DNA of 63,310 nucleotides, filler included, from Basidiobolus ranarum (Eukaryota): NCBI GenBank assembly GCA_040143965.1. It is 36 parts of 36 records of this genome, joined end to end, with 100 filler letters (N's around TTAATTAATTAA, not from the genome) between each part and the next. Parts side by side here need not be neighbours in the genome. Positions count along the whole stretch, not along the records: positions 51,145 to 52,798 come from JASJQH010004617.1; 35 more parts are not named here. One strand, written 5' to 3'. The position numbers and the translations under genes are program-made. The notes under the pieces were generated by a model. That model was not told where the DNA came from. It saw nothing but the letters and a program-made list of their open reading frames with translations, and did not search any database. This document shows positions 765 to 61,167 of the stretch, in pieces. Each line of letters starts with the position of its first letter. Positions within the stretch are counted from its first letter, which is position 1.

Positions 765-1670
765 GTGTCTACTTCACAAACTGATGGAACTTTTCCCTCT
801 TCTGAACAATTGGATGGAACCAATTGTCAAGTTTGGAATATTAAAATGAAAATGCTGCTGCAAGAAAAAGAACTTTGGGACACTGTTGTAGGAGAAGAAA
901 ACAATGCAAAACTCTATGAAGCCAAAGTCTTGTTGAAGTTTATATCTTTATCATATTTTTTAGCTCTATCTTTATTCACCTATCTATTTTATATATCACA
1001 TGTAAGTTAGTTAAGATTACTTAGTCAAATATCACTTGACTGCAAGTCAGAATGTATATTATATATATATGTGAATAATGTGAGAAATAGCAATTCCATA
1101 TTGAAAATTTAAAACTTGTCCCAATTGCCCAAAAGATAGCTCATTTTACTCTTACAGTTGTTCTGAACACAACCCCAGTGTTAGTTTTCTGTATTTCCAC
1201 CAAAATGTACAAATGCTTCATTTCTAGACAATAAATATTTATCTCACAAAAGCTATTCACAGCTCCAATTTTCTAAAGTTCCTCCAAACAGACCTTATTT
1301 TCCCAATAAGTCTCACTCCAGGTCAAAAAAGAACAAAGTGCCTTTGATACAATTTGTCTTAATTTAAAGACCAATTGCTAATTCAATGTTGAAGAGCTAA
1401 AACTGCAAAGAAGGTATGGAAAGCATTGGAAGGCACCTACTAAGCAAGTTCTGCTGCCAACAAGATGTTTCTAACAAGACAATTCTTTAACTTAAAAATG
1501 AAGCCAGGAGAAGACATTAAATCACTAATTAATACAGTCACTATTTTAGTGGAAGAAATGGAATGCAATGGAGTACCTGCCTCTGATCAAGATATCATAG
1601 TTATAGTCCTGAATAGTCTGCCACACTAGTTTCAGAGCCTTGTAATGGCTCTAGAATCAAGAACTGAAAA
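765..1670 (+). pseudogene. gag: copia gag (family D), interrupted by a solo LTR-B, with stops and frameshifts
   Basis: LDGTNCQVWNIKMKMLLQEKELWDTV motif. Homologous to the uninterrupted copy at 43555-44019. Confidence 0.88.
931..1308 (+). mobile_element. Solo LTR, family B, with perfect 5-bp TSD AGTCT
   Basis: TGTTGAAG...CCCAATA flanked by AGTCT at 926-930 and 1309-1313. Confidence 0.93.
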
Positions 1671-21221: not shown

Positions 21222-22738
21222 CAATGAGAATAAGCTTTTGGATTTTGGCAAATTTCCATATATAATTCAGCCAATATAACCCCCACTTGCAGTCAACAAA
21301 TGTCCTGCCACAAGTAGATGTGTCATTGCTTGAATAGATTATCCCATGGCTAAAACAATAATACTGCATATCTTACTCTACCTCACCAAGAAATCTGTCT
21401 TGCAGCTTTCCTAGAAATACCATCAGATTATTACATAAACAAATTAGTACAAATTATAGAGGTACTGACTCTGTGTCTATGGATTGTGCTTTGTTGTTGT
21501 TATTGTACTCAGACAATGCAAAATCCCATGAGCATATTGAAAACATCCTTTTGTTGGAAGGTTAATATACTCTGGAGTCTCCTTAACCCATTGCATTACA
21601 TTCATCACTGATTTTACTGATACAATGTTAATCAGATTATCATATGGTAATACTGACAATTTCACATGGAGCATAATTTCACTGCAGGTGCACTTGATTG
21701 GGAACTCCCAGAATGTATAGCAAGGGCCTATAATATCTAAGCATTGTGAAAGATGCAGCAGGGAATGTATTGAATATCAGCATAGATTCAGTCTGTCTTC
21801 TTCATACCTGCAATAAAGCTCTTCATATCCTATTACACAATCTTTGCACAGTCACTCTATCTGCCTGAAATATGCCAATGTGAGTTGATGCCATAAGAAT
21901 ATATTAACAATATCCACAAACAACTACCAATGTTGCCAGTACCTATCAGGCAGAAATCTTTTCAAGATTCCACTTGTATATATACAAATCCAATACTTCT
22001 GGTCTCTGCATTTGATAAATGCTTAGATGAGTGGATATTTGTGGGAGTCCTGGTAAAATATGATGGTATCTTTTCAGATTCAAGCATTTTCCCAATAAAT
22101 TCAAACTTTGATACTATCTCAAATGACTCACTCATATTGAATTTTTCACTAGATAGCTAAGTAAGTAGTGTTGGAATGTTGTTGTATAGTAAGTGCATAG
22201 TGCCTATTGGGAAGCTCTGGCGCCAGCTGATCCCCTTTGGCAATATAATCTTAGGCTTATGGCTAATACCAAGCTTGATGTTAGACTAACTATGTGGTGA
22301 ATTAATATTGGTGATCATGTTAAAATCTGACTGGGTGGTAGATGGTAAAATCATGGAGTTTAGCTTTGTATTTGGATAGTAGTAACAGGTATGCCTGATA
22401 GAGTAGACTCCAATGATTTGACAAAACCTACAGCAAGATAGTGCATTGTGCCTGCAAAAACCTCCAAGTTTACTGATGGCAGGAGTGTCACCAATTCATA
22501 CAATGATATTGGCTTTAACTAAATATTCACCCATCTGTACCCCATTAGATAACCATTCAAATTCCACAATCAAAGGCTCCAAGAAGCTATCTATAAGCAC
22601 TTTCGATTTAGGTCCAGATATGATGGATAGTATCAAAATATTATGCCTCTTATACAGTTGAGAAGGAGGAAGGTTTAATTTGATTAAAATTATTGGCCAG
22701 CAAGCCTTTCCAATGGTATATTTGTTAAGTGAGAAACC
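21222..22738 (-). pseudogene. CMC transposase core and 3' region; LTR-B insertion at 22739-22886
   Basis: GDTPAISKLGGFCRHNALSCC and FWEFP motifs, with stops. Confidence 0.9.
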
Positions 22739-24751: not shown

Positions 24752-26141
24752 TATATATATATGATCTTATTATAGCTACCAACAATGATTAATATCACAC
24801 GAACATCAAAAGAAAGATATACGTCCAATTAAAGATTACAAATTTAGGTGAAGTTATATAGTTATTATGTCTGCAGATCCATACATATATATTTGGAAAA
24901 TCTATTACTCTGAATCAATCTTAGTACATCTCAAACATTCTCAGATGTTACAGGATGGAGAATGGCAAGCCAGTAGCAACTCCCATGGATCCAGATGTTA
25001 AACTAGTCAAAAATCCCATCAAAAATGATGAAAATTGGCCAAATATGGCTCAAAATATGTCATTTGAAAGCCCTGAGTTCCCATATCAATCTATGGGAGG
25101 TAGTTAGATCTATGCTATGACTGGAACCCAACTAGATGTTTCTTTTGCAGTGGGAGTAGTCAGCCAACATGTGCAAAACCCGGGATCTGAGCATTACACA
25201 GCAGTTAAGCAGATTTTCAGATATTTGAAGGGGACAATTGATCTGGGATTAAGATAGACATATTCTTAGGGGAAGACGATCTAATTGGTTTAGTGATGAA
25301 GATTTAGGACATGGTATTGAGGACAGAAGTTCTATCACTGGATATACCTTTCTCTACAGTGAAGCAGCCATACCTTGGAATAGCAAGAAATAACCCACCA
25401 TAGCACTTTCAACAACTGTAGCAGAATATATGGCAGCATCACATACAACAAAGGAGGCTATGTGGTAAAGAAAACTACTTAAAGACTTGGGCATTATTCA
25501 AAGTTTACCCACCATAATTTTAAGGATAATTAAAGTTGTATTTCTTTATCTAAAAATCCCAAATTTCGTGCTAGAAGTAGGCACATTGACATTCAACATT
25601 ACTTTGTCAGGGAGGCTATTGAGAATAAGCACATCCAACTACAGTACTGCTCAACTGAGGACATGATTGCTGACCTCCTTACCAAACCATTACCCAAGCC
25701 AAATTTGAAGAATTAAGATTTAAGTTAGGATTAAGATATATGAATATTTAGTTGAGTAGGAGTGTTGAAGTTTATGGTCTTTATCATATTTGTTTCCTCT
25801 AACTGTGTACACCTAACTATTTCATATAACACATATATGTTAGTTAACATTACTTATTCAAATATCACTTAACTGAAAACCAGAACATATATTAAATATA
25901 TATATATGAATATTGTGAGAATTAGCAATTCCATATTGGAAATTTAAAACTTGTCCAAATTGCCCCAAAAATAGCTTGTTTTACTCCCACAGATATTCTG
26001 GACATAACCCCAGTGTTAGTTTTCAGTATTTCCACCAAAATATATAAATGCCTTATTTCTGAACAATAAATAATTATCTCACAAAGCTATTCACAGCTCC
26101 ACTTTTCTAAAGTTCCTCCAAACAGCCCATATTTTCTAATA
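24752..26141 (+). mobile_element. copia RT/RNase H, PPT (GTTGAGTAGGAG) and 3' LTR-B (25763-26141)
   Basis: RSSITGY, STTVAEYMA, RHIDIQHYFVRE, EDMIADLLTKPL, then PPT and TGTTGAAG. Confidence 0.93.
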
Positions 26142-26515: not shown

Positions 26516-26628
26516 GGCATAGCATACAAGGACTGGTAGCTCAATGGTTAGAGCACCTTGCTAGAGTGAAGGAGGTCCCAGGTTCAAATCCTGGCCAGAC
26601 CAATATTTCTCCCTAAATAATTTCAATA
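26516..26628 (+). mobile_element. LTR-A 3' part (tRNA-containing LTR, copy 1)
   Basis: Matches the reverse complement of 51614-51727. Ends TTTCAATA and is followed by CMC sequence. Confidence 0.88.
26530..26602 (+). ncRNA. tRNA-like cassette inside LTR-A
   Basis: 73-nt cloverleaf: A box TAGCTCAATGG, D stem GCTC/GAGC, T arm CCAGG-TTCAAAT-CCTGG. Mismatches at A3:A70 and G31:G39. Confidence 0.85.
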
Positions 26629-28178
26629 GAGATATCTCTGATCAGTCAAGCATATGTGCATGTAAAGACTGAGCACAACAAAATTCTTTTATTTTTTGAC
26701 TCTCATTATGCCTGGAATACAATGCCTAAAATATCTAAATACAGGCATGCAAATCAATTCAAATTCCTACAGCAGTAAACTCGGTAATTTCTCATTCAAA
26801 AGCTAGATTTTTGCCAAAATTGCCAGAAATCAAATAATGCATGCCGAATAGGAAGTGCAATATTTTAACATGTATGAATACTGTAAAAATACCATCAAGA
26901 AGCCACCATCTCACCTTTAAAATCCCTAGCAGAATGGAAGCAACCAATAATGTGATGGTTTTTGAATGGTGTTGCAATCCAGAAGGGTTGATCTGAGCCA
27001 GATCAAATTGATTTTATATTTGTTATTGCTCATTGCTCATTGCTCTTGCTGATTCATTCTTAATTAAATAACATATGGTAATACTGATGATTCTGCACAC
27101 AGCATTATTTCATCCAGGTGCACTCCATTGGGAACTCCCAGAATGTAGAGCAAGGGCCTAAAATCTCTAGGCATTGTGGAAGATGCAGCAAGGGATGTAT
27201 TGAATACTGGCATAGATTCAGTCTAACTTCTTTAAAACTGTAATAATGTTTTTCATATCCTATTCCAAAATCTTTGCACAGTCACTGTATCTGCATGAGA
27301 TCTGTCAATGTGAATTGATGCTGTAAGAATATATTAACAATATCCACAAACAACTCCCAATATTGCCAATACTTATGAGCCTGAAATCTTTTCAAGATTC
27401 CACTTGAATATATACAATTCCAATACTTCCAGTTTTTGCATTTGAATAAACTCCTAGATGAGTGGATATTGATAGGAGTCCTGGTAAAATATGATGGTAT
27501 TTTGCTGTGTTCAAGCATTTTCTCAAAATATTAAAACTTTGATCCTATCTCAAACAGCCCATTTGTGCTGAATTTTCCACTATATAGCTGGGTAAGTAGT
27601 ATTGGAATGTTGTTGAATAGTAAGTGCACAGTGCCTGATTGGAAACTCTGGTTCCAGCTGATCCCCTTTACTAATTTAATCTTAGGCTTATGGCTAATTC
27701 CAAGTTTGGTTTTAGACTGACTATTTGGTGAATTGATATCAGTCAGCTTGTTGAAATCTGACCAGGCTCTTGATGGTAAAATCATAAGGCTTAGTGTTTT
27801 TTTGTATAGTGGTAATGCACATGCCTGGTAGAGTAAACTCCATTGATTTGACAAAATCCACAGTAAGATAGTGCATTGTGCCCACAAAAACCTCTAAGAT
27901 TACTGATTGCAGGAGTGTTACCAATATATATAGTGATGTTAGCATCAAAAAAATATTTGCCCATCTGAACCCCTTTAGATATCCATTCAAATTCTGCAAA
28001 CAAAGGCTTCAAGAAACTATCATTAAACACTGGTGATTTAAGTCCAGATATGATAGATAGTATTGAAACATCATTACTCTCATACAATTCAGAAGGAGGT
28101 GGATATAAGTTGATAAAAGTTATTAGCCAGCAAGCCTCTCCAGTAGCATATTTGTATAGTGAGAAACCATCCAGAGCC
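26629..28178. mobile_element. CMC right-end region (26629-27025) joined to transposase core (-, 27070-28178)
   Basis: Reverse complement of 5650-6040, then KIPSYFTRTP, FKCKNWKYW and GNTPAISNL. Confidence 0.85.
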
Positions 28179-28278: not shown

Positions 28279-29261
28279 AGCTACATTTGTGCCAAGCTTG
28301 GGGCTTCTAGCACAAGCTTGAAATATCTATATATATGAGAACTACTAAATTTGTAAAAATATTCCAAGTAGTTCCAATTGAGAATAGTGGGTACTATCTT
28401 AGTGAAATATGGAATTCCTAAATAGCAAGCTATTTATGACTATATAGATGTCTAGTCTATGCTGATTTCACCAGTGATAGTGTTATTTGCCTATATACCC
28501 CAAGTTGTAATTGAGGCTTGAGCCTTTACTTTACTACTACAGTAAGTGCCATATTGTTCCTAAAAGCTGTATTATAAATTGGGATAAGGCAGACTGTGAG
28601 TTAAGGGCTAAAGTAAACAATTCTAACCTCTTGCTTTATGATTTAAACATAAGCCAACTCTATGTTAAAGTATTTTTTTGGGAGCCTTTTGATGTTAGAG
28701 TTTTTTTGAGCCTGTTGGAAGTGGTTTAGAGAAATTGGTGGTTTTTGCTTATTGATTTATTGCATAGAGTGTTGACATTTATGCTTTTATCAAGATATAA
28801 ACAAACAAATATGTAGAATGTGTTGCAATTAGCATTGCCTAAGCACCTATATAGTCATATATAGTTTAGTATTTAGTTATCTTATATTTCACTAAGATAT
28901 TATCCATTATTCTTGTTGAAATTTATATTGCCTAAACACCTATATAGTCATATATAGCTTAGTACTTAGTTATCTTATATTTCACAAAGATATTATTCAT
29001 TATTCTCAATTGGAATTTACTTTGAATTTTCTTACCAATTTAGAAGTTCTCAGATATATAGACTTTTCAAACTTGTGCTAGGAGCCCCAAATTTTGGACA
29101 CATGTTCCTGAGACCCTTATTAACACATTCCACACATTATTTTGCTTACATCTTGACAAAGCTAAAAATGTCATCTTTCTACCAAATAAATCAATAGGTG
29201 AAAACCACCAATTTCTCTAATTCTCCAAACCACTTCCAACAGGCTCCCAAATACTTTAACA
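28279..29261. mobile_element. Nested and inverted LTR-D cluster; + copy about 28820-29261 has an internal duplication
   Basis: LTR-D blocks in both orientations. ATTGCCTAA.CACCTATATAGTC occurs twice. Confidence 0.85.
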
Positions 29262-40602: not shown

Positions 40603-42261
40603 ATTGAAGAGAGCCCTTTGTTGGCTTTTTAATATACTTTGGAGTCTCCTTAACCCATTGCATTACATCCATCACTGATTTTGCCAATACATTGTTAATC
40701 AGATTAGCATATGGTAATACTGACAATTTCACACAGAGCATCATTTCACCACAGGTGCACTCCATTGGGAACTCCCAGAATGTATAGCAAAGGCCTATAT
40801 TCTCTAAGCATTGTGAAAGATGCTGCAGGGAATGTATTGAATACCGGCATAGATTCACACTATCTTCTTTAAACCTGAAATAAAGTTTTTCATATCGAAT
40901 TACATAATCTTTGCACAATCATTGTATCTTCCTGAGATCTGCCAATGTGAGTTGATGCCATAAGAATATATTAAGAATATCAACAAACAACTTCCCATGT
41001 TGCCAATACTTATCAGGCAGTAATCTTTTCAAAATTCCACTTGAATATATACAATTCCAATACTTCCAGTCTTTGCATTTGAATAAACACCTAGATGAGT
41101 GAATATTGATGGGAGTCCTGGTAAAATATGATGGTATCTTGACATTTTCAAGCATTTTCCCAATTGATTCAAAGTTTGATCCTATCCCAAATGCGCATTC
41201 ATATTGAATTTTCCACTATATAGCAGAGTAAGCTGTATCGGAATTTTGTTGAATAGCAAGTGCATAGTGCCTAATGGGAAGCTCTGGCTCCAGCTAATCC
41301 CCTTTAGTAATGTAATCTTAGGCTTACGGCTAATACCAAGTTTGATGTTACACTGACTATTTGGTGAAATGATATCAGTGATCATATTAAAATCTGACCA
41401 GGCTCTTGTTGGTAAATTCATGAAGTTTAGTGCTGTATTTGGATAGTAGTAATTTGTATGCTTGTTAGAGTAAACTCCATTCATTTGACAAAATCCCCAG
41501 CAAGATAGTACATTGTGCTTGCAAAAGCCTCCAAGTTTACTGAAGGCAGGAATGTCACCAATATATATAGTGATATTAGCTTTAATAAAATATTCACCCA
41601 TCTGAAATCCATTAGGAAACCATTGAAATTCCACGGTCAAAGGCTCCAAGAAGCTATCTATAAGCACTGGTGATTTAGGTCCAGATATGATCAATAGTAT
41701 CAAAATATTATGACTCTTATACCATTCAGAAGGAGGAAGATATACATTGATTTAAATTGTTGGCCAGCAAGCCTTTCCAATGCTATATTTGTTTAGTGAG
41801 AAACCATCCAGAGCTAATACAAATGCATGATCATATATGTTCTCAAAGAAACCTTGACTCTTCAGATTCTGGTAGTGATATCCATCAAGTATATCAGTAA
41901 CTCCATCAGCTTTACAGTGAGTACTTTGGTATTGGATCAATGATCTATATTTTGGTGATTTCAAAAAAACTTTAAGACAAGGAATCAATGGTAAGTAAGC
42001 CAAATATGAACAATATTTACCTTATTAAATGATAGCCAATTGTGTGCAAAAAGTACATGACTTCTGGTTTTTCAGATCACCGGTGAAAGCCAAACAACCA
42101 TTTGAGCATGAAGGTAGTTTAGTTACAGAAGGATTATAAGTCAAATGACTGACAAGGGTTTTCCACTTGTACTAGGTCTGTGGCAAGCAACATTTGCCAA
42201 TCAACTGTTCTAATAGTGTAAGAAAACCAATAAACACCTGGTTGCTAACATTGGATTGAAA
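40603..42261 (-). pseudogene. CMC transposase core
   Basis: LALDGFSLNKY, GDIPAFSKLGG, GTMHLLF, IHSLQHL..C...FWEFPME. Confidence 0.92.
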
Positions 42262-43175: not shown

Positions 43176-44019
43176 TGTTGAAATTTGCTTTGCCTAAACA
43201 CCTATATAGTCATATATAGCTTATTACTTAGTTATCTTATAATTCACTAAGGTATTATCCATTTTTCTTAATTGTAATTTACTCAGAATATTTTTACCAA
43301 CTTTGATGTTCACAGTTGTATAGGTTTTTCAAACTTGTGCTAGAAGCCCCAAGCTTTGCACACATGTTCCTGGGACCTTCCTTAACAGATTATACATGTT
43401 AGCTTGCTTACATCTTGACAAAACTATAAATGTCAACTATCTACTTCATAAATCAATTAGTGAAAACCACCAATTCCTCTAATTCTCAAAACCACTTCCA
43501 ACAGGCTCCCAAATGCTTTAACAGGTTATGAGCCCCAAGCTTGCACTCTCTGTAATGTCTACTTTTCAAATTTATAGAACTTTTCCTTCTTCTGAAAAAT
43601 TGGATGGAACCAGTTATCAAGTTTAGAAGATTAAAATGAAAAGGCTACTGCAAGAAAAAGGACTTTGGGACACTGTTGTAGGAGAAGAAAACAATACAAA
43701 ACTATCTGAAACCAAAATTTTACTCCAAGTCAAAAAAGAACAAAGTGCCTTTAACACAATTTGTCTTAATGTTAAAGACATATTGCTAATTCAATGTTCA
43801 AGAGCTAAAACTGCCAAGGAGGTATGGAAAGCCTTGGAGCACATCTACCAAACAAGTTCTACTGCCAACAAGATGTTTCAAAGAAGACAATTCTTTAACT
43901 TAGAAATGATGCCAGCAGAAGACATTGAATCACTAATTAGTAGAGCAACTATTTTAGTGGATGAAATGGAATACAATGGAGTACCTACCACTGATCAAGA
44001 TATCATAGTTACAGTCCTG
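43176..44019 (+). mobile_element. Family-D element 5' end (LTR 43176-43523, PBS, gag from 43555) nested in an RT
   Basis: TGTTG...AACA-GGTTATGAGCCC, then LQEKGLWDTVVGEE...TAKEVWKALE. Confidence 0.93.
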
Positions 44020-47744: not shown

Positions 47745-49289
47745 CTTGCTCTGTGTCCATGGATTGGGCTTTGTTGCTGTTATTGTGCTCAAACAATGCA
47801 AAAACCCATGAGCACATTGAAAAGAGCCCTTTGTTGGCAGATTAATATACTCTGGAGTCTCCTTAACCCATTGCATTACATCCATCACTGATTTTGCTGT
47901 TACATTGTTGATCAGATTAGCATACAGTATTACTGAGGATTTCACATGGAGAATCATTTCACCACAGGTGTGCTCCATTGGGAACTCCCAGAATGTATAG
48001 CTAGGGCCAAAATCTCTAAGCATTGTGAAAGATGCAGCAGGAAATGTATTGAATACCAGCACAGATTCAGTCTAGCTTCTTTAAACCTGTAATAAAGCTT
48101 TTCATATCCAATTACAAAATCTTTACACAATTGCTGTATCTGCCTGAGATCTGTCAATGTGAGTTGATGGCATAAGAATATATTATCAATATTGCCAAAC
48201 AACTCCCAATGTTGCCAATACTTATCAGGTGGAAATCTTTTCAGAATTCTACTTGAATATATACAAATCTGATACTTCCAGTCTTTGCATTTGAATAAAT
48301 GCCTAGATGAGTGGATATTGACAGGAGTCCTGGTAAAATATGATGGTATCTTGGCCTTTTCAAGCAGTGTCCCAGTTGATTCAAACTTTGATCCTATCTC
48401 AAACGGCTCATTCATGTTAAATTTTCTACTATATAGCTGAGTAAGTAGTGTTGGAACGTTGTTGAATACTAAGTGCATGGTACCAAATAGGAAGCTCTGG
48501 CTCCAGCTGATCCCTTCTAGCAATATAATAATAGGCTTATGGCCAATACCCAGTTTGATGTTAGACTAACTATTTGGTGAATTGATATCAGTGATCATGT
48601 TGAAATCTGACCAGGCTCTTGATGGTAGAATTACAAAGTTTAGTGTTGAATTTGGAAAGTAGTAATGTGTATCCCGGTTAGAGTAAACTCCATTGATTTG
48701 ACAAAATCTACAGCAAGATAGTGCATTATGCCTGCAAAAACCTCCAAGTTTACTGATGGCGGGAGTGTCACCAATACATACAATGCTATAAGCTTTCATA
48801 AAATATTCACCCATCTGAATCACATTAGATAACCATTCAAATTCCGCAATCAAAGGCTCCAAGAAGCCATCTATAAGCACTGGTGATTTAGGTTCAGATC
48901 TAATGGATAGTATCAAAAGATTATGACTCTTACACCATTGAGAAGGAGGAAGATTTAAGTTAATTGAAATTATTGGCCAGCAAGCCTTTCCAACAGTATA
49001 TTTGTTTAGTGAGAAACCATCCAGAGCCAATGCAAATGCATGATCATATGTGTTCTCAAAGAAACCTTGACTTTTCAGATTCTGGTAGTGATATCCATCA
49101 AGTATATTGGTAATACCATCAGCTTTACGGTGAGTACTTCGGTATTGGATCAATGATCTATATTTGGGTGATTTCATCAAAACTTTAAGACAGGGAATCA
49201 ATGGTATGTAAGCCAAATATGAACAATATTTACCTGATTCAGTGATTGCCAATTGTGTGCAAACAGTACATGACTTCAGGTTTTTCAGA
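47745..49289 (-). pseudogene. CMC transposase core (best-preserved copy)
   Basis: LALDGFSLNKYTVGKACWPIISINLNLPP, GDTPAISKLGGFCRHNALSCCRFC, FWEFPMEHTCG. Confidence 0.93.
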
Positions 49290-49389: not shown

Positions 49390-49772
49390 GAGAATTAGAC
49401 AAATTGGTGGTTTGTACTAATTGATTTATTGAGTAGAAAGTTGACATTTATAGTTTTATCAAGATGTAAACAAACTAATGGGCAGAATATGTTAAGGAAG
49501 GTCCCAGGAACATGCGTACAAAGTTTGGGGCTTCTAGCACCAGTTTGAAAAATCTATATATCTGAGAACTTCTAAGTTGGCGTCAATATTCCAAGTAGAT
49601 TCCGATTGAGAATAATGGAAAATGTCTTGGTGGAATGTAATATAACTGAATACTAAGTTATATATGACTATAGAGGTGTTTAGGCAATGCTAATTTAAAC
49701 ATCAATAAGTGAAACCCGCCAACTTCTCTAATTCTCCAAGCTACTTCCAACAGGCTCACAAATACTTTAACA
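49390..49772. mobile_element. LTR-D (-) fused to an inverted LTR-D 3' piece (+)
   Basis: Orientation switches near 49701. Confidence 0.8.
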
Positions 49773-51144
49773 AAGTTGTAGGTAAAGTAAAGAGAAATAA
49801 GGCTTTGCAAGATAAATGCAGAAATAACGTTGCCAGCATCTATCATCATCTAACTCAAGCATATTTATATGTATATATATACCTCGAGGTATCTTCCAGT
49901 AATATAATACCAATACCAAGTATAAAGCATTAAGTAAAGGTGATTCCCAGATGCTAACTTAAGACGAGATCATAAAGTGTAGGGTCAGAGTTAGAGATAG
50001 GTTTAGGTTTAGCCTAATTGGCTACGAATGGAATTTAGATATTAAGGTCGAAAAATCCAACAATTGATGTGTTTGGAATTTAGACGCACCAACCTAGAAC
50101 ATTGCAGAATAAGATGAGCACATCGGAACAGAGAGAAAGCTGTGTGAAGTAGGAAACATAGGAAGGCACCTCTTCAGATTTTGACGCGTCCATAGTGTAC
50201 GCAGAAAGTTGGTGATCTATCATCTTTCTTGAGTTACCAAGACTATTATTTCAGTGGGTAATCTAGATTAGGTAATCTAGATCAGGAGTGTGGTCTGTTT
50301 ATAAAAATGTTAGGGACTTCGCCTTTATATGGATGTCCTTACCTATTATTAGACAAGTATTTTTAAAAGTTTACTTGAGGTAAACAGGCACATGGCTTCT
50401 TCCATACGTTCTACTGGGTAACATACCAACTCCAACTGGATTTTTGGTTTAGTACCAAAAGCGCCAGTGAACACAAAGCGCCAATTAAGCAGCTATGTTA
50501 CATTATAGGTATTGGCATGGCATAAGAGACTGATTGTTTAATGACAAACAGGAATATTGAGTTGGCACAAGAAACAGGTTATAAGAGTACAGTATACAAG
50601 TGATACTTTTCCTTCACTTGATGCCACACGCTAGCTCACTTAACACTATGTCATTTTAATATTCAGAAGTTCATTAGCTGTAAACAGTCAGAAATAAAAT
50701 AAATTTAAACGCTATATGACGCTGGTAACTATATACGAAGCCCGGTATAGCTTGAGTGTTCAGGCCCCACTGTTGAGAGAATTATCCACCATGGCTCAGG
50801 ATACATGGCAAGTTAGATACTGCTAATGCTAGTAGATGAACAGGAAGTAATATCAAGTATCCATCAGGTCCTGGTATATTTCAATTCAGGAATATTTGGT
50901 AAAACTCGTCTATATATTTTGTGTTTATTTTGACAATGTATGTATATGGTAATTCGGATATAGTTGCTTCTATAAAAGAAGTGTTGAATTTCGACCGAAG
51001 ATGTGAAGTACATTATGTTGTTACTGACTATGAACCAAACCAATNNNNNNNNNNNNNNNNNNNNNNNNNNNNNNNNNNNNNNNNNNNNTTAATTAATTAA
51101 NNNNNNNNNNNNNNNNNNNNNNNNNNNNNNNNNNNNNNNNNNNN

Positions 51145-51581
51145 TGTAAAGTTGCACCAATATTTTCCAGTTGTTTTGCCAAAGATCTCACATTTGCAAT
51201 ATGAGTAACCATGCTTTCAGACTTTTCCATCTTTATATTGAAGAATTTTTGTCTGCAAAAGAGTCTGTTAGCAAGACTCTTTGCTTCATAATATTCTCCC
51301 AATATAGTCCAAGCTTGATGGGAAGTCTTTGCATAATGAATATTTGCAAGTTATGAATCCTTCAAACTTTAACAAATTACATTAAAGGCCTTCTTGTCTC
51401 TTTTCTTGTAAGCTTCCAATAAAGATGGGTCAGAAGGTTCCTTTTCATCTCCAGAGACTATATCCCAAAGCTCCCTGTCTTCCAGCATGATTTGCATCTT
51501 GAACTTCCAGAAATTGAAATTTTCTCCATCAAACTTTTCAACACTTGAGTTAATAAAAGTGGTAGTAGTGGTTTCTGTCAT
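51145..51581 (-). pseudogene. gag: copia gag (family B) downstream of LTR-A and PBS
   Basis: MTETTTTTFINSSVEKFDGENFNFWKFKMQIMLEDRELW, with one TAA after FNVIC. Confidence 0.93.
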
Positions 51582-51613
51582 GCTGTAAAGGTTAGAACAC
51601 AGGGCTCATAACC

Positions 51614-51894
51614 TGTTAAAATTATTTTAGAGAGAAATATTGGTCTGGCCAGGATTTGAACCTGGGACCTCCTTCACTCTAGCAAGGTGCTCTAACCACT
51701 GAGCTACCAGTCCTTGAATGCTACGCCTATATTACTAGGGAACCTTAACCTAGTCTGTCAATGTATGGTACTCTGGCATTTCAGTTTTACAAGCAACTGA
51801 TTGGCCTTAGACTTTGGGTTTGATGCAGTCACCATACTCAATATTTTCCTCTTTGGGAATTACTGCTTGTATCACAAGTACCAGACTTTCAACA
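51614..51894 (-). mobile_element. Complete LTR-A acting as 5' LTR (copy 2); PBS at 51601-51613
   Basis: In element sense: TGTTGAAAGTC...TTTTAACA, then GGTTATGAGCCCT, then gag. Confidence 0.92.
51641..51713 (-). ncRNA. tRNA-like cassette in LTR-A, same sense as gag
   Basis: GGACTGGTAGCTCAGTGGTTAGAGCACCTTGCTAGAGTGAAGGAGGTCCCAGGTTCAAATCCTGGCCAGACCA. Confidence 0.87.
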
Positions 51895-52798
51895 AATGCT
51901 CTGTATGGAATTTTCAGTATTACCATATGCTAAACTCATTAACAATATATCAGCTAAATCAGTGATGTATGTAATGCAATGGGTTAAGGAGACTGCACAG
52001 TATATTAACCTTCCAACAGATGGCCCTTTTCAATATAAATGTGGTTTTTACATGGTTTGAGCACAACAGCAGCAACAAAACCTAGCCCATGGACACAGAG
52101 TAAGTACTGCTATAATTTGGACTAATTTATTTGTGTGATAATCTGACAGTATTTATAGGAAAGATGCAAGACAGACTTCTTGGTGAGATAGATTGCAATA
52201 CACAGTATTATTGGACTTGTTCCATTGTGCCAGGATTTATTGGACCTTAGATCTATATATTAGAGTAAATGTGATTGAAACTGATCATGCTGGAGGGTGC
52301 TGGATAGTGCCAAATTATGCTGCATAAATCTTTTAATACTTTATCTAATATGATATATACAGCACAATCTGGCACTATCACAGAGAACAAGTTCATTGTT
52401 TTAGCCATGGCATAATCCAATGAAGCAATGACACATCTACTTGTGGCAGGACATTTGTTGACTGCAAGTTAGGGATATTTTGGCTGAATTCTTTACTTAA
52501 ATTTGCCAAAGGCTAACTTCAATATACTAAACCAGCATGCAAACAGTGGAAAAGTTGATAAACATCTGGAATTTTGAATAGCACTGACGCTTGGCACATA
52601 GCTGAATCTTGTTACCATTCACAATGAGAATAAGCTCTTGGATTATGGCAAATTTCTATGAAGAATTCAGCCAAAATATCCCCAACCTGCAGTCAACAAA
52701 TGTCCTGCCACAAGTAGATGTGTCATTGCTTGAGTTGCTTATCCTATGACTAAAACTATAATAGTGTGGATCTGAATCTTTGTCACGTAGGAGTCGGT
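51895..52798. mobile_element. CMC transposase 3' fragments, first + then -
   Basis: VMQWVKET and related 3' sequence; orientation switches near 52520. Confidence 0.75.
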
Positions 52799-53112: not shown

Positions 53113-54552
53113 TGTTGAAATTAGCATTGTCTAAACACCTATATAGTCATATATAGCTTAGTACTTAGTTATCTTATATTGAACTAAGATATTATCCATT
53201 ATTCTCATGAGGAATTTACTTAGAAGTTTGAAGATATATAGATTTCAATAACTTGTGCTAGAAGCCCCAAGCTTTGCATACATGTTCCTGGGACCTTCCT
53301 TAACCCATTCTACACGTTAGTTTATTTACATATTGACAAAAGTATAAATGTCAACTGAATACTCAATAAATCAACAAGTGAAAACCACCAATTTCTATAA
53401 TTGTCCAAACCACTTCCAATAGGCTCCCAAATACTTTAACATCAGGAACATCTATACAAAGCTTAGGGTCTCTTGGACAAGATTGAGTAAATCATATCCA
53501 AGTTGGTAAAAATATTGTAAGCACATTCCTCATGAAGATACTGAATAATAATAGTGAAATTGAAGTAGCCAACTATATAACTATATTGATGCTTTAGCTA
53601 TGTCATTTTCAGCATATTTTTCTATATTGACAATTATTACACACCTCCTAGATATAAAGTAGATGATGTTTACCAGTGTTTCACTCATACAAAGTGCCTC
53701 TTGAAGCACCTTTCCTTCATAAAAATTACAAATAATGTTATGATCTGATGTTAAAATTGTGGGAGACTTGTACTCTTTCTCTGACAGCAACAAATATATG
53801 CATCAAATGGAGGCCTATTCAAGAGAATATCACTGGCAGCTTCACGGATTGTATACAATATGATACATTGCCATGAGCCCATAGTAAAATCTTTGGAGTT
53901 GGGTTCAAAGTCTTAATGTATTGGGGGGCCTGTTGGAAGTGGTTTGGAGAATTAGGGAAATTGGTGGTTTTCACTTTCTGATGTATTGAGTTTTTGGTTG
54001 ACATTGATAGTTTTGTCAGGATGTTAACCGACTAACATGTAGAATGTGTTAAGGAAAGTTTGGGGCTTTTAGTACTGGTTTGAAAAAGTCTATATATTTG
54101 AGAACTTCTAAGTTGGTAAAAAATATTCTCAGTAAATTCCAATTGAGAATAATGGGTAATACCTGAGTGAAATAAAGAATAACTAAATATTAAGCTATAT
54201 ATGACTATATAGATGTTTAGGCAATGCTAACTTCACCACAAAGGTGAGTTAAGCCTGTTGAAGTATTTTGGGAGTCTGTTGGAAGTGATCAGAAGAACTA
54301 GAAAAACTGATGGTTCTGATATATTGCTTAGAAAGTTGACATTTGTAATTTTGCCAAGAGGTAAGCAATATGTATGCAGAATATGCTAAGGAAGGTCCCA
54401 AAACCATGTGTGATATGTTTGGGGCTTCTGGCACAAACTTGAAGAATCTATATATCTGAGGACTTCTGATTGATGTAAATTTTCAATAAAATTTCCTCTT
54501 GAGAATAGTGAGTGATATCTATTAAAGTATTTGGGAGCCTGTTGGAAGTAGT
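53113..54552. mobile_element. LTR-D cluster: + copy 53113-53441; - copies about 53915-54240, 54256-54520 and 54520-54552
   Basis: Repeated LTR-D termini and internal blocks. Confidence 0.85.
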
Positions 54553-56529: not shown

Positions 56530-58057
56530 CAAGCAATTTTGGATTGTTGTGTAGGCTTAATGGTCCAATACATATTCTACTCTGCTAGATTGTCAAGGTG
56601 ACATTCATATGTATGGTGTGGGATTGATTGAAATCCTATATGAGAATGGATGGAGGGAGCAGCATGCTGCTGTATTTCAAGTACAGCATTCTGAAGGTCT
56701 TGTATCATTGTTAAGTGACTCTCTGACTGTTGACTAGTTTCTTCCAAATACTGCATTAATTGCACTATTGCAGCATTATTGCTTGTCATGGCCTGTATAG
56801 CAACTTTGTAGTTTTTACTTATGACTGCATACAAATCATTACATTGTTCTGCCTGCAATTCCCTTGACGTAATAATTGTTGAAATTATTTAAGGATAAAT
56901 ATTGGTCTGGCCAGGATTTGAACCTGGGACCTTCTTCACTTTAGCAAGGTGCTCTAACCACTGAGCTACCAGTCCTTGTATGCTATTCATGTATTGCTAG
57001 GGAACCTTACCTAGTCTGTCAATGTATGGTATTTCAGCTTTACAAGCAACTGATTGGCCTTAGACTTTGTGTTCAGAAACAGTCACCATACTCCATATCT
57101 TCCTCTTTGGGAATTACCGCTTGTACCATAAGTCACCAGACTTTCAAATGTAATTCTATCCAAGTTTTTTACAGAGGGTTGTTCAATAGTGGGCAAAGTA
57201 GCCATTTTAGAGGTTGATGGTCTTGATGGTGTTTCAGTTGAACTTTGTTCAACTATTGATTTGCTACATAATTGGGGGATTATAATCTCTTCCCTTGCAC
57301 TATTGCTTGAAAGGAACACATCTGGTAAATTGATTAATACTTCATCATTACTTCAGTTAGTTTCTGGCATGTTAATGCCTTCCAAAGTGGATGGTGGATT
57401 GCTAGACTGCTCATCAATTAAGTCCTCTGTTCTTGCTGGTCTTTTTCCTTTTGTGCCAGCAGGCTTTGGTTTGGAAGCTGATTTTGACTTAGATTTTGAA
57501 CGCTTTTTGATTGGCAATGATATTTTCCAATGGTAAATTGGTGTATTGAAATTGCTTAAAACAGCTTATAATAAACAAAATTGCCATCCATTACTGGAAG
57601 CATGTTGTAAATCCCCTAATGACTTATCTGTGACACTGTCTCAAAATCAGCCAATGATATTGATGGGCTATACCTAAAATACCCCACTTACATGGGAGGT
57701 GTTATTTTTGCTACAATATCCTTCTGATGCCACAACAGAAACTTTTAAAGAAGCCCTGCTATTATTGTCATAAATTCTTGTGCAATGAAAGCTGAAGGCT
57801 TCATTAAAAAATAATCACAAGCATGGTCACTGTACAAAGCCACCAGCTGCACAAAGCCTGGTGTATAACAACAGTAATAACTGCACTAAATTGAATTTAA
57901 CTTTGGCCATTGAGTTGACTGACTGTAGTTTGCCTCAAAGTTTTGGTAACACAACCAAAGTCAAGATACCATGGAGTTACCACAGTTATATGACCAGAAT
58001 GATGTAGGTCAAATGCAACTTTGGTCAAACCAGTAAGTCCAGACAACTGTGAGGACT
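56530..58057. mobile_element. CMC central region (ORF2 -, spacer, transposase 5' +) carrying a solo LTR-A
   Basis: Colinear with 33950-35200 once 56877-57154 is removed. Confidence 0.88.
56877..57149 (-). mobile_element. Solo LTR-A (copy 3); tRNA-like cassette 56903-56975
   Basis: Flanked by ATAAT/GTAAT (4/5 TSD match). Empty site GTA-CTAAT-TCTATC seen near 39301. Confidence 0.9.
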
Positions 58058-58157: not shown

Positions 58158-59808
58158 GCAACGTTAATATAATGATGGGCTTTGATGGAGATATTGATAC
58201 AAACTTGTGTTGGGTATGAGCCAAACCTTGGGTATGAAGAACTCTATATAATTATTCAGGAGAATATATCAAAGAGACTAGGGATTTCAAAGGTGACAAT
58301 TTAGTGTTAAAGAGGTAATTGTGTAAAATTTGAGTTATATTTTTGCACATGTGTTGTTCCATAGTACTCTGAGATTTTAGCCAATCATGCAAAACTATTT
58401 TGTGAGATCTTGAAATTTCACTCCTGAAACTGAAAAAATTGATTAAAATCAAATCTAACCTGACAAATTTATGATGGTTAGTGAACAGTCAATCACAAGT
58501 GGATTAAAATTGTGATGGTTTTCCTACAAAAACAATCCTCAAATTTCTGTCAGGGAATAAGAATAAGCTCTTGGATTTTGGCAAATTTCCATAAAGAATT
58601 CTGCTAATATGTCCCCCACTTGAAGTCAACAAATGTCCTGCCACAAGTAGATGTGTCATTGCTTGAATCAATTACCCCATGGCTCAAACAATAATACTGC
58701 ATATATTGATCTATCTCACCAAGAAGTCTGTTTTGCAGCTTTCCTAAAAATACCATCAGATTATCACACAAGCAAATAAGTCTGATTATAAAGGTACTTA
58801 CTCTGTGTCCATGGATTGGGCTTTGTGGCTGTAATTGTGCTCAAACAATGCAAAAACCCATGAGCACATTGAAAATAGCCATTTGTTGGCAGATTAATAT
58901 ACTCTGGAGACTCCTTACCCCATTGCATCAAATCCATCACTGATTTTGCTGATACATTGTTAATCAGATTAGCATACAGTAATACTGACAATTTCACATG
59001 GAGCATCATTACTATTGAACTTATTTAGGGAGAAATATTGGTCTGGCCAGGATTTAAACCTGGGACCTCCTTCACTCTAGCAAGGTGCTCAAGCCACTGA
59101 GCTACCAGTCCTTGTATGCTATGCCTATATTGCAAGGGAACCTTAACCTAGTCTGTCAATGTATGGTACTTTGGCATTTCAGTTATGCAAGCAACTGATT
59201 GGCCTTAGACTTTGTGCTCAGATGCAGTCACCATACTCCATATTTTCCTCTTTGGGAATTACTGCTTGTACCACAAGTCACCAAACTTTCAACAATTTCA
59301 CCACAGGTGTGCTCCATTGGGAACTCCCAGCAAGTATAGCAAGGGCCTATAATCTCTAAGCATTGTGAAAGATGCAGCAGGGAATGTAGTGAAAACCGGC
59401 ATAGATTCAGTCTATCTTCTTGAAAACTGTAATAAAGTTTTTCATATGCAATTAAAAAATCTTTGCACAGTCCATGTATCTGCCTGAGATCTGCCAATGT
59501 GAGTTGATACCATAAGAATATGTTAACAATATCTGCAAACAACTCTCAATGTTGCCAATACTTATCAGGCAGAAATCTTTTCAAAATTCCACTTGAATAT
59601 ATACAATTCCAATACTTCCAGTCTTTGGATTTGAATAAACACCTAGATGAGTGGATATTGATGGGAGTACTGGTAAAATATGATGGTATCTTGATGTTTT
59701 CAAGCATCTTCCCAATCAATTCAAACTTTCATCCTATCTTGAAAGGCTCATCCATATTAAATTTTTCCACTATATAGCTGAGTTAGTAGTATTGAAGTGT
59801 TGTTGAAT
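58158..59808 (-). mobile_element. CMC left terminus (ends 58555) abutting another CMC transposase 3' half (58556-59808)
   Basis: TTTCTGTCAGGG, then transposase C-terminal sequence. Confidence 0.85.
59013..59294 (-). mobile_element. Solo LTR-A (copy 4); tRNA-like cassette 59039-59111
   Basis: Flanked by ATTAC/ATTTC (4/5 TSD match). Empty site GAGCATC-ATTTC-ACCACAGG near 40736. Confidence 0.9.
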
Positions 59809-59908
59809 NNNNNNNNNNNNNNNNNNNNNNNNNNNNNNNNNNNNNNNNNNNNTTAATTAATTAANNNNNNNNNNNNNNNNNNNNNNNNNNNNNNNNNNNN
59901 NNNNNNNN

Positions 59909-60830
59909 TTCCAAAGCTGTGACCAAGTTTGATTACTGTTCTGGTAGACTACTTAGAAGAGTCATAATGACATCTTCTTCCTGTAAAGTTGCACCAATAT
60001 TTTTCAGCCGTTTTGCCCAAGATCTCACATTTGCAATATGATTAACAATGCTTGTGGACTTTTCCATCTTTATATTGAAGAGTCTTTGCCTGAGAAAGAG
60101 TCTCTTAGTAAGACTCTTTGCTTCATAACACTCTTCCAATATACTCTAAGCCTGATGGGAAGTCTTTGCATATTGAATATTCACAAGTTGTGAATCCTTC
60201 AAACTTTGACAAATGACATTAAAGGCCTTCTTATCTCTTTTCTTGTAAGCTTCTAATAAAGAAGGGTCTGAAGGTTCCTTTTGATCTCCTGAGACAACAT
60301 CCCAAAGCTCCCTGTCTTCCAGCATGATTTGCATCTTGAACTACCAGAAATTGTAATTTTCTCCATCATGCTTTTCAACACTTGAGTTAATAAAAGTGGT
60401 AGTAGTGGTTTCTGTCATGCTGTAAAGGTTAGAACACAGGGCTCATAACCTATTGGGAAAATATGGGCTGTTTGGAGGAACTTTAGAAAAGTGGAGTTGT
60501 GAATAGCTTTGTGAGATAATTATTTATTGTCCAGAAATAAAGCATTTATACATTTTGGTGGAAATACAGAAAACTAACACTGGGGTTGTGTTCAGAACAT
60601 CTGTGGGAGTAAAATGAGCTATCTTAGGGGCAATTTGGACAAGTTTGAAATTTCTAATATGGAATTGCTAATTCTGACATTATTCACATATATATACATA
60701 ATATATGTTCCAATATTCAGCTAAGTGATATTTGACTAGGTAATGTTAACTAACATATATGTGTTATATGGAAGAGTTAGGTGTATCAAGATAGAGATAA
60801 CAAATATGAGAAAGACAATAAACTTTAACA
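59909..60830 (-). mobile_element. Family-B element 5' end: LTR-B (60451-60830), PBS (60438-60450), gag (ATG 60418)
   Basis: LTR-B, then GGTTATGAGCCCT, then MTETTTTTFINSSVEK. Confidence 0.93.
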
Positions 60831-60931: not shown

Positions 60932-61167
60932 TGTTGAAAGTCTGGTGACCTGTGATACAAGCAGTAAATCCAAAAGAGGAAAATATGGAATATGGTGACT
61001 GCATCTGAACACAAAGTCTAAGGCCAATCAGTTGCTTGTATAGTTGAAATGCCAAAGTACCATACATTGACACACTAGGTTAGGGTTCCCTAGCAATATA
61101 GGCATAGCATACAAGGACTGGTAGCTCAGTGGTTAGAGCACCTTGCTAGGGTGAATGAGGTCCCAGG
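60932..61167 (+). mobile_element. LTR-A (copy 5), truncated in the T stem of its tRNA-like cassette (cassette starts 61115)
   Basis: TGTTGAAAGTCTGG start. Lies between two parts of a copia RT (60831-60931 and 61168-61559). Confidence 0.88.

What the first reader, a model, noticed from the sequence alone, without database searches (positions are those of the whole stretch)
51601..51894. Copia LTR carrying a tRNA-like Pol III cassette, attached to a gag-coding element
Seen: a ~280-bp LTR (TGTTGAAA...TT(C/T)AACA) in five copies (26516, 51614, 56877, 59013, 60932). It holds a 73-nt cloverleaf with A box (TAGCTCAGTGG), B box (GGTTCAAATCC) and paired D and T stems. The cassette is in gag sense and ends about 27 nt before the PBS. 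Two copies are solo LTRs with 5-bp TSDs (4/5 match) and visible empty sites, so the cassette moves as part of the LTR. It has no SINE tail or TSD of its own. Known precedent, from memory: Cassandra (5S rRNA in the LTR) and Helenus (tRNA-like LTRs) are non-autonomous TRIMs. Here the LTR leads into PBS plus copia gag, suggesting a coding and possibly autonomous counterpart. Inferred roles: an internal Pol III promoter, a TFIIIC insulator against silencing, or an RNase P/Z cleavage site that defines RNA ends.
Basis: partly seen in the sequence, partly recalled or inferred. Interest (0 to 1): 0.9.

Follow-up and report, generated by a model that had tools for sequence, protein, structure and literature searches.

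The report
tRNA-like LTR of a copia-dependent retroelement
A 281-bp retrotransposon end-repeat that carries a tRNA look-alike is real and matches the recently described "Helenus" type of parasitic LTR element, but nothing here shows that it belongs to a self-sufficient, protein-coding element.

Summary
LTR-A (281 bp) occurs five times: three full copies and two partial. Every copy that retains the region has a 73-nt tRNA-like module (Rfam tRNA 50-59 bits, cut-off 29). The module is in element sense and ends 27 nt before the LTR end. Two copies are solo LTRs with 5-bp duplications and paralogous empty sites.

The "window" appears to be 36 separate ~1.66-kb contigs joined by linkers, so adjacency across the N blocks means nothing. 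Only one contig joins LTR-A to a primer-binding site and copia gag. That gag has two in-frame stops and runs off the contig after 437 nt.

Three other gag 5' ends of the same family carry an unrelated LTR (LTR-X), which also follows pol and a polypurine tract. LTR-A shares with LTR-X only the termini, the 5-bp duplication, the primer-binding site and the leader. This is the relation Kojima (2024) described between fungal Helenus elements and their Copia partners.

My best reading is a Helenus-type, copia-mobilised, probably non-autonomous family. Autonomy is not shown. The junction also carries a suspicious 81-nt exact run shared with an LTR-X contig. The host is unidentified. No reads or whole assembly were available.

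The parts
51614..51894 (-). LTR-A, full copy (281 bp, TGTTGAAAG...TTTTAACA). It is the only copy followed by a PBS and gag.
51641..51713 (-). 73-nt tRNA-like module (anticodon AGA, A and B boxes). It ends 27 nt before the LTR 3' end.
51602..51613 (-). Primer-binding site GGTTATGAGCCC. Its complement reads as an initiator-tRNA-Met anticodon stem-loop (CAU flanked by GGG/CC).
   Evidence: Sequence. The tRNA assignment is inferred from established knowledge and from Kojima 2024.
51145..51581 (-). copia gag remnant (DUF4219 / Retrotran_gag_2) with 2 in-frame stops. It runs off the contig end.
51895..52213 (-). Flank upstream of LTR-A: the end of a Transposase_21 DNA transposon ('R'). It is not a PPT or a copia internal region.
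59013..59294 (-). Solo LTR-A inside R. TSD ATTAC/ATTTC. Empty sites near 21678, 40745, 47958 and 27107. tRNA-like module at 59039-59111.
56877..57149 (-). Solo LTR-A (273 bp, with an 8-bp deletion). TSD ATTAC/ATTAT in element sense. Empty sites near 34295 and 39307. tRNA-like module at 56903-56975.
60932..61167 (+). Partial LTR-A (5' 236 bp, broken in the T arm), nested in an old copia RT fragment.
26516..26628 (+). 3' 113 bp of an LTR-A, cut by the contig start and followed by non-PBS sequence. tRNA-like module at 26530-26602.
60451..60830 (-). LTR-X (about 380 bp, TGTTAAAG...CCCAATA), the 5' LTR of a gag copy that is 91% identical to the LTR-A-linked gag. It has the same PBS.
25763..26136 (+). 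LTR-X as a 3' LTR, preceded by the copia RT/RNase H C-terminus and the purine tract GAGTAGGAG.
931..1308 (+). Solo LTR-X with a perfect 5-bp TSD AGTCT/AGTCT. Empty site near 43716.

Best explanation
LTR-A is the long terminal repeat of a Helenus-type (TRIMp3-like) retroelement family. It most likely rides on the enzymes of a co-resident autonomous Ty1/copia family, here called copia-X.

**Shown.**
- LTR-A is an LTR that inserts with 5-bp duplications.
- Its last 100 nt are a tRNA-derived module (73 nt, intact A and B boxes, not a working tRNA) plus 27 nt.
- In one contig it is followed at once by the same PBS and leader as copia-X, then by decayed gag sequence.
- Apart from the terminal bases (5' TGTTGAA, 3' AAYA), LTR-A and LTR-X are unrelated.

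**Inferred.**
- The module acts as an internal Pol III (type 2) promoter, so element RNA starts at or near the tRNA-like 5' end. That would make the module the R/U5 part of the LTR.
- 3 of the 4 copies with this stretch lack a T4 run after the module, so transcription would read into the PBS and leader.
- Such RNA would be packaged and primed through the leader and PBS shared with copia-X. Priming would use a half tRNA-iMet, as in Ty5 and Drosophila copia. Copia-X integrase would recognise the shared LTR termini and insert it.
- The family is probably non-autonomous. Its internal region would be copied from the 5' end of copia-X, as in the published pair LTR-1_PTrit / Copia-9_PGr.
- All copies seen are old and dead.
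For: - **tRNA-likeness:** ARAGORN and Rfam agree. 19 of 21 pairs are standard, with two mismatches shared by all 4 copies, so the module was already a non-tRNA when the family spread.
- **LTR nature:** two solo copies have 5-bp TSDs and empty sites. The termini TGTTGAA...AAYA match those of LTR-X, which itself gives a perfect 5-bp TSD and sits after pol and a PPT.
- **Unrelated LTR bodies:** the LTR-A versus LTR-X local alignment score is 20 against a shuffle mean of 19; 103 of 300 shuffles reach it.
- **Shared PBS and leader with copia-X**.
- **Cassette confined to LTR-A:** 5 of 5 profile hits are LTR-A copies.
- **The module is the best-kept part of the LTR:** pairwise differences are 31/650 (4.8%) in the module, 132/1154 (11.4%) upstream and 22/159 (13.8%) downstream. 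Variable columns are 8/73 against 48/210, Fisher p = 0.028.
- **No strong terminator:** a T4 run follows the module in only 1 of 4 copies, whereas the real tRNA-Pro gene in the window has one right after its 3' end.
- **Published match:** Kojima 2024 (sections 3-4 read) describes fungal Helenus with 5-bp TSDs. Its dominant PBS is the tRNA-iMet anticodon loop, and the elements are Copia-dependent. Predicted tRNAs are Ser-AGA/Thr-AGT, LTRs are unlike the partner's, and the internal part is copied from the partner's 5' end.
Against: - No element with two LTR-As is seen.
- 0 of the 4 observable LTR-A 5' ends is preceded by a PPT or internal region. Only 1 of the 4 observable 3' ends is followed by a PBS.
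- The one internal region seen is at least 469 nt. Two LTRs plus that make at least 1031 bp, above Kojima's 1000-bp screen though below his longest family (1263 bp).
- The junction rests on one short contig. It shares an exact 81-nt run with an LTR-X contig, which is odd for two decayed copies.
- The conservation signal is weak: five copies, p = 0.028, and an 8-bp deletion was counted as 8 differences.
- MFE folding gives no cloverleaf and is no better than shuffles (z -1.06).
- No Pol III terminator lies inside the LTR to define a 3' end.
- Nothing was measured about transcription.
- The host is unknown. None of the named hits listed is fungal, and the best named relatives are animals. In animals, published Helenus elements are Gypsy-linked with 4-bp TSDs.
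Confidence: 0.55

Rival explanations
1. LTR-A is the LTR of an established, coding, autonomous copia lineage. This would be a sister of copia-X that replaced its LTRs with tRNA-bearing ones.
For: - LTR-A is directly joined to the PBS, leader and a gag start codon in gag sense.
- That gag is 91% identical to the copia-X gag, and the differences are spread evenly over codon positions (11/13/16). Most of the difference therefore looks like decay after insertion, and the source internal regions were close.
- Kojima's screen kept only elements under 1000 bp, so longer tRNA-LTR elements would have been missed by design.
Against: - No pol, PPT or second LTR-A is linked to it, and the contig ends 437 nt into gag.
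- 3 of the 4 gag 5' ends of this family carry LTR-X, which is also the LTR seen after pol.
- A Pol III start could not give a ~5-kb AT-rich RNA. T4 runs lie at +155 and +453 from the module start.
- No clear Pol II signals were tested.
Confidence: 0.12
2. The LTR-A/gag junction does not represent the family. It could be a mis-resolved repeat in a short-read assembly. It could also be a one-off recombinant made by gene conversion, or by reverse-transcriptase template switching between co-packaged Helenus and copia-X RNAs at the shared PBS and leader. The true LTR-A internal region would then be short and different.
For: - Contigs 30 and 35 share an exact 81-nt run that starts at the last LTR base (51534-51614 = 60371-60451). 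After it come 40 differences in 389 nt.
- The longest exact runs among LTR-A copies are only 29-37 nt.
- Other copies of the family (a, d) differ within that same stretch, so it is not simply invariant.
- The assembly is very fragmented, with pieces of about 1.66 kb.
Against: - Both branches leaving the shared run in this window are gag, so a swap of partners would still join LTR-A to a gag.
- The rest of contig 30 is a distinct copy, not a duplicate of contig 35.
- Selection on a cis-acting leader in the source elements could also keep it identical.
Confidence: 0.2
3. The tRNA-like module is a passenger with no promoter role, such as a fossil of a tRNA gene or SINE that landed in the U5/R part of an ordinary Pol II-driven LTR.
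For: - The acceptor and anticodon stems carry mismatches shared by all copies.
- The anticodon (Ser) does not fit a short-variable-arm tRNA.
- No terminator follows the module.
- MFE folding is unremarkable.
- A CCAAT motif is conserved in 4 of 4 copies upstream of the module, and an ATATAGG motif in 3 of 4. Neither was tested.
Against: - The module varies less than the rest of the LTR (4.8% against 11-14%).
- Both boxes are intact in every copy apart from single late substitutions.
- The same arrangement recurs in many independent Helenus lineages (Kojima 2024).
Confidence: 0.12
4. LTR-A is not an LTR but a tRNA-derived SINE or other short repeat.
For: It is short, holds a tRNA-like module, and occurs mostly as single insertions.
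Against: - The module lies at positions 182-254 of 281, not at the 5' head.
- There is no A-rich or LINE-like tail.
- TSDs are fixed at 5 bp.
- The TG...CA-type termini are identical to those of a copia LTR.
- A PBS directly follows one copy.
Confidence: 0.02

Closest known systems
Helenus, fungal type (e.g. LTR-1_PTrit with its partner-like Copia-9_PGr); Kojima 2024, Biology 13:119, PMC10886601
   Same: - A tRNA-derived sequence with A and B boxes inside the LTR.
- LTR length within the published range (120-323 bp).
- 5-bp TSDs and many solo LTRs.
- A PBS complementary to the tRNA-iMet anticodon loop.
- The predicted 'tRNA' is a non-functional Ser-AGA type.
- The LTR is unlike that of the Copia partner, while the start of the internal region is shared with it.
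   Different: - No two-LTR copy is seen here.
- The shared internal stretch is at least 469 nt and reaches 145 codons into gag, against 198 bp in the published pair.
- The host is unidentified, and none of the named protein hits listed is fungal.
- I could not compare with the Repbase consensus sequences or the paper's supplementary tables (closed), so identity with a catalogued family is not excluded.
Helenus, animal type (bivalves, chalcid wasps, fishes and others; Kojima 2024)
   Same: tRNA-like LTRs of similar size.
   Different: The published animal families make 4-bp TSDs, use the 3' ends of other tRNAs as primers and resemble Gypsy elements at the PBS. Here the TSD is 5 bp, priming is by half-tRNA-iMet, and the partner is copia.
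Cassandra (plant TRIM with 5S rRNA in its LTRs; Kalendar et al. 2008, known to me from Kojima's text and from recall)
   Same: A small Pol III-transcribed RNA gene copy sits inside both LTRs of a non-autonomous LTR element.
   Different: The module here is tRNA-like, not 5S. Rfam finds no 5S match in the window.
Ty5 (yeast) and Drosophila copia: half-tRNA-iMet priming (cited in Kojima 2024)
   Same: The PBS is complementary to the initiator tRNA anticodon stem-loop and directly abuts the 5' LTR. Both are in the Copia superfamily.
   Different: Those elements have ordinary Pol II LTRs without a tRNA-like module.
tRNA-derived SINEs (SINE2)
   Same: A tRNA-derived module with A and B boxes. This is a plausible source of the cassette, as Kojima proposes for Helenus.
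   Different: There is no 5' head position, no tail and no variable TSD. The cassette moves only as part of the LTR in this window.

Membership tests
Helenus (TRIM with tRNA-derived LTR; Kojima 2024) | tRNA-derived sequence with box A (TRGCY...YGG) and box B (GGTTC) inside the LTR | tested here: met
   ARAGORN and Rfam hits in 4 of 5 copies; the fifth is truncated. Boxes read from the alignment.
Helenus (TRIM with tRNA-derived LTR; Kojima 2024) | Two LTRs flanking an internal part with a PBS and a PPT | tested here: inconclusive
   One 5' LTR plus PBS is seen. No LTR-A pair and no PPT/LTR-A junction exist in the window. Contigs are only ~1.66 kb.
Helenus (TRIM with tRNA-derived LTR; Kojima 2024) | Miniature, non-coding element (screen below 1000 bp; longest described 1263 bp) | tested here: inconclusive
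   The internal part seen is at least 469 nt of decayed gag and runs off the contig. The implied length is at least 1031 bp.
Helenus (TRIM with tRNA-derived LTR; Kojima 2024) | 4-6 bp TSD (5 bp in the Copia-linked fungal and plant families) | tested here: met
   Two solo copies, each with a 5-bp TSD matching at 4 of 5 positions, and with empty sites.
Helenus (TRIM with tRNA-derived LTR; Kojima 2024) | PBS region shared with an autonomous LTR retrotransposon of the same genome | tested here: met
   The PBS and the first 80 nt of the internal region are identical to an LTR-X copia copy.
Autonomous Ty1/copia element bearing LTR-A | gag-PR-IN-RT-RH coding region between two LTR-As | tested here: not met
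   Only 145 gag codons with 2 stops are linked to LTR-A. The pol fragments in the window are linked to LTR-X or other LTRs, or are unlinked. The limit is contig length, not proof of absence.
Cassandra / Ajax (5S-bearing TRIMs) | 5S rRNA-derived sequence in the LTR | tested here: not met
   No 5S rRNA match at the gathering threshold or at E <= 1.
SINE2 (tRNA-derived SINE) | tRNA-related head at the 5' end, LINE-derived or A-rich tail, variable TSD | tested here: not met
   The module lies at 182-254 of 281, there is no tail, and TSDs are fixed at 5 bp.
Functional tRNA gene | Fully paired cloverleaf, anticodon consistent with the tRNA type, T-run terminator | tested here: not met
   A.A and G.G mismatches occur in all copies. 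The anticodon is Ser on a short-variable-arm body. A T4 run follows in only 1 of 4 copies.

The most novel reading that the evidence does not exclude
A coding, self-sufficient copia lineage whose LTRs carry a tRNA-type Pol III promoter in R/U5. It would have arisen when a Helenus-like parasite and its copia host exchanged LTRs by template switching at the shared PBS and PPT. That would make the tRNA-like LTR a module that moves between parasite and host element. It would also contradict the published expectation that autonomous partners cannot share such LTRs.
Probability: 0.1. Interest if true: 0.75.

Novelty: new member of a known kind. Interest (0 to 1): 0.35.

Why it matters
tRNA-bearing LTRs (Helenus) were described only in 2024, and nobody has yet shown how they are transcribed or which element moves them. 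This locus adds a clear case in which the parasite LTR and the putative helper copia can be compared directly. They share the same termini, the same 5-bp duplication, the same half-tRNA-iMet primer site and the same leader, but have unrelated LTR bodies. That pattern supports trans-mobilisation without LTR homology.

If the gag-linked copy proves real and typical, Helenus-type LTRs are not confined to miniature elements. LTR exchange between parasite and helper would then become testable. If the host is an animal, this would be the first Copia-linked Helenus with a 5-bp TSD outside fungi and plants.

As the data stand, it is a modest addition to a known class. It is also a practical warning for tRNA gene prediction in this genome.

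Tried and rejected
- **Whole genome:** none is held for this window.
- **Public-collection scans for LTR-A:**
  - A 20-mer gave 0 hits in metagenome contigs, genome contigs and viral contigs.
  - A degenerate 31-mer of the module gave 0 hits in metagenome contigs.
- **Earlier findings of this scan:** nothing on this genome or sequence.
- **Host identification:**
  - RT homologues reach at most 59% identity and are unnamed. The named ones are plants at about 45%.
  - For RT/RNase H, the best named hits are a sea cucumber (41%) and a soft coral (45% over 56% of the query). None of the named hits listed (120 of 128) is fungal.
  - The transposase has a single relative, 85% identical and unnamed.
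  - The Atlas taxa are mixed, and the cluster look-up gave no organism names.
  - The host stays unknown. A rust fungus, which Kojima's paper first suggested to me, is not supported by these hits.
- **First map of the window:** I initially read the N blocks as masks and treated neighbouring pieces as adjacent, for example 'gag truncated next to transposon R'. I rejected this once the linkers and the sorted piece lengths were seen.
- **Codon-position test for coding constraint:** comparing the LTR-A-linked gag with LTR-X-linked gag copies showed no third-position excess in any pair. It cannot separate the hypotheses.
- **tRNA-like module as its own primer:** only 5 nt are complementary to the PBS region.
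- **LTR-A as a derivative of LTR-X:** no similarity beyond the termini.
- **Literature:** searches for 'TRIMp3' and for tRNA-like + long terminal repeat + Copia + polymerase III promoter found only Kojima 2024 on this subject. A 2026 sugar-beet paper (PMC13570524; passages only) merely cites it. Supplementary tables with the Helenus consensus sequences could not be seen.

Full report
**1. What the window is**

The N blocks are not gaps in a chromosome. Each is the same linker, N44-TTAATTAATTAA-N44. The 36 pieces between them fall steadily in length from 1670 to 1651 nt. I infer that the window is a length-sorted run of short contigs from a fragmented assembly. Nothing can be concluded from what lies across a linker.

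All pieces are transposon debris. There are several Ty1/copia families (RVT_2, integrase SH3, gag). There is also an abundant DNA transposon with a Transposase_21/DUF1258 ORF, here called 'R'.

GC is 35% (base counts) and CpG observed/expected is 0.17, with an excess of TpG and CpA.

The host could not be named. None of the named hits listed is fungal. The best named relatives of the RT/RNase H are a sea cucumber (41%) and a soft coral (45% over 56% of the query). Most close hits are unnamed.

**2.

LTR-A has three full copies: 51614-51894, 59013-59294 and 56877-57149, all on the minus strand. It also has two partial copies. The one at 60932-~61167 (+) is broken in the T arm and nested in an old RT fragment. 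The one at 26516-~26628 (+) is cut by its contig start. A profile search finds only these five.

On the tRNA-like module:
- ARAGORN and Rfam both call a 73-nt tRNA in the four copies that keep the region (50.2-58.6 bits, cut-off 29).
- The A and B boxes are intact apart from one late substitution each in two copies.
- 19 of 21 stem pairs are standard. A3.A70 and G31.G39 are mismatched in every copy.
- The anticodon is AGA (AAA in one copy), which does not fit a short-variable-arm tRNA. The module is therefore tRNA-derived but was not a working tRNA when the family spread.
- Free-energy folding alone does not recover the cloverleaf (z -1.06).

On its position: the module is in element sense and occupies LTR positions 182-254. 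It ends 27 nt before the LTR end. In contig 30 the LTR end is followed directly by GGTTATGAGCCC and, 20 nt later, by a gag ATG.

On the solo copies: the copies at 59013 and 56877 are solo LTRs with 5-bp duplications (4 of 5 matching) and several paralogous empty sites.

**3. What LTR-A is attached to**

The gag after LTR-A matches DUF4219 (E 7.5e-9). It also matches Retrotran_gag_2 at 26 bits, just under the cut-off of 27. It has two in-frame stops in 145 codons and then the contig ends. Upstream of LTR-A lies the end of transposon R, not a polypurine tract.

Three other 5' ends of the same gag family are present, at 6910, 60450 and 35539. Each is preceded by a different LTR, LTR-X, which is about 380 bp. 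In the third case only 38 bp of it remain.

LTR-X is a complete LTR in every respect that can be checked:
- It follows the RT/RNase H C-terminus and the purine tract GAGTAGGAG in contig 15.
- It has a solo copy with a perfect TSD, AGTCT/AGTCT.

LTR-A and LTR-X share their first 7 nt (TGTTGAA), their last bases (AAYA), the 5-bp TSD and the PBS. Nothing else is shared: the local alignment is no better than shuffles.

The PBS complement, GGGCTCATAACC, reads as the anticodon stem-loop of an initiator tRNA-Met (CAU in a seven-base loop, next to a GGG/CC stem). That assignment rests on established knowledge of initiator tRNAs and on Kojima's description. No initiator tRNA gene was available here to test it.

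**4. Comparison with the literature**

I read sections 2-4, the figure legends and the tables of Kojima 2024 (PMC10886601). Helenus elements are TRIMs with tRNA-derived LTR sequences. The fungal families have these features:
- They make 5-bp TSDs.
- They resemble Copia elements at the PBS.
- They are often predicted as tRNA-Ser-AGA or Thr-AGT.
- They leave many solo LTRs.

In the pair LTR-1_PTrit / Copia-9_PGr, the whole internal portion of the TRIM equals the first 198 bp plus the last 12 bp of the Copia internal portion. The LTRs of that pair are unrelated.

LTR-A with copia-X reproduces this pattern feature by feature. The paper's screen kept only elements under 1000 bp. The author also argues that autonomous partners should not share such LTRs, because Pol III is poorly processive.

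Literature searches found no other work on tRNA-bearing LTRs. A 2026 sugar-beet paper only cites Helenus (passages).

**5. How it most likely works**

The shown facts are those in sections 2 and 3. The following steps are inferred:
- The module supplies a type-2 Pol III promoter, so element RNA begins at or near the module's first base. The module plus the 27-nt tail would then be R/U5.
- 3 of 4 copies have only T3 runs after the module. Transcription would therefore continue into the PBS and leader.
- RNA carrying the copia-X leader and PBS would be packaged and reverse-transcribed by copia-X proteins. It would be integrated through the shared termini.

Support for a function of the module in the source elements is modest. 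It differs by 4.8% between copies, against 11-14% for the rest of the LTR. Variable columns number 8/73 against 48/210, p = 0.028.

Against a Pol III-made full-length copia RNA, T4 runs lie at +155 and +453 from the module start.

**6. What remains open**

(a) It is open whether the gag-linked copy is typical, a one-off recombinant, or an assembly mis-join.
- Contigs 30 and 35 share an exact 81-nt run that begins at the last LTR base. After it come 40 differences in 389 nt.
- The differences are spread evenly over codon positions (11/13/16), as expected for decay of dead copies.
- Dead copies should not stay identical for 81 nt, and two other family members do differ within that stretch.
- The possible explanations are gene conversion, template switching between co-packaged RNAs at the shared PBS and leader, or a mis-resolved repeat. 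I could not lay reads.

(b) No LTR-A pair and no PPT/LTR-A junction are seen. 0 of 4 observable 5' ends shows one, and only 1 of 4 observable 3' ends has a PBS.

(c) Two LTR-A insertions sit 5 bp apart, in opposite orientation, in paralogous R copies. This hints at a target preference, but the sample is two.

(d) The host is unknown. If it is an animal, the 5-bp TSD and copia link would differ from the published animal Helenus elements.

**7. Verdict**

- The element fits the Helenus/TRIMp3 kind as a new member. Membership is met for the tRNA-derived LTR, the TSD and the shared PBS. It is inconclusive for the two-LTR structure and for miniature size.
- It is not shown to be coding or autonomous (probability about 0.1).
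- The family may already be catalogued in Repbase or in the paper's supplement, which I could not see.

Noticed in passing
whole window; linkers e.g. 51045-51144, 59809-59908: The window is 36 pieces of 1670 down to 1651 nt, joined by identical N44-TTAATTAATTAA-N44 linkers. This looks like a length-sorted concatenation of short contigs, so adjacency across the N blocks is not genomic.
   Followed up: yes
window 15565-15638 (-): A separate tRNA-Pro(CGG) (Rfam 49.4 bits) is followed at once by T4 runs and is not part of any repeat in the window. It looks like a genuine tRNA gene.
   Followed up: partly
window 51534-51614 and 60371-60451: An exact 81-nt run is shared by the LTR-A/gag contig and an LTR-X/gag contig. 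It starts at the last LTR base and is followed by about 10% divergence. Gene conversion, RT template switching or an assembly artefact could each explain it.
   Followed up: partly
window 59008-59012 / 59295-59299 and 51895-51901 (paralogous sites near 21674-21678, 47957): Two independent LTR-A insertions in paralogous copies of DNA transposon R lie 5 bp apart in opposite orientation, right at the stop codon of the R ORF. This may reflect a target preference.
   Followed up: partly
window 21222-22738, 40603-42261, 47745-49289, 27037-28178, 12386-13415, 17689-18305 and others: An abundant DNA transposon 'R' has a Transposase_21/DUF1258 ORF. Only one relative was found in the 5.8-billion-protein search, 85% identical and unnamed. 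Both solo LTR-As lie in R-related sequence.
   Followed up: partly
window 388-734, 7282-7624, 9734-10077, 11341-11684, 16942-17116, 28914-29261, 43176-43523, 49390-49701, 53113-53441, 53913-54240: A ~345-bp repeat ('Z') is the commonest in the window. In two contigs it directly follows the pol 3' end of another copia family (11749-12077, 17133-17582), so it is probably that family's LTR. It holds no tRNA-like hit.
   Followed up: partly
whole window: CpG observed/expected is 0.17, with TpG and CpA at 1.30-1.33 and TpA at 0.80, and GC is 35%. This points to heavy CpG methylation decay of the repeats and not to a RIP-like pattern.
   Followed up: no
window 52395-52510 and 52646-52759: A 114-bp inverted repeat (88% identity) of R-end sequence lies inside contig 30, next to the LTR-A insertion. 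It may be the two termini of a short R derivative.
   Followed up: no
window 51720-51790 (minus strand; LTR-A positions ~105-175): Upstream of the module, a CCAAT motif (GGCCAATCAG) is conserved in 4 of 4 copies and an ATATAGG motif about 19 nt before the module is conserved in 3 of 4. Neither has been tested as a promoter element.
   Followed up: no
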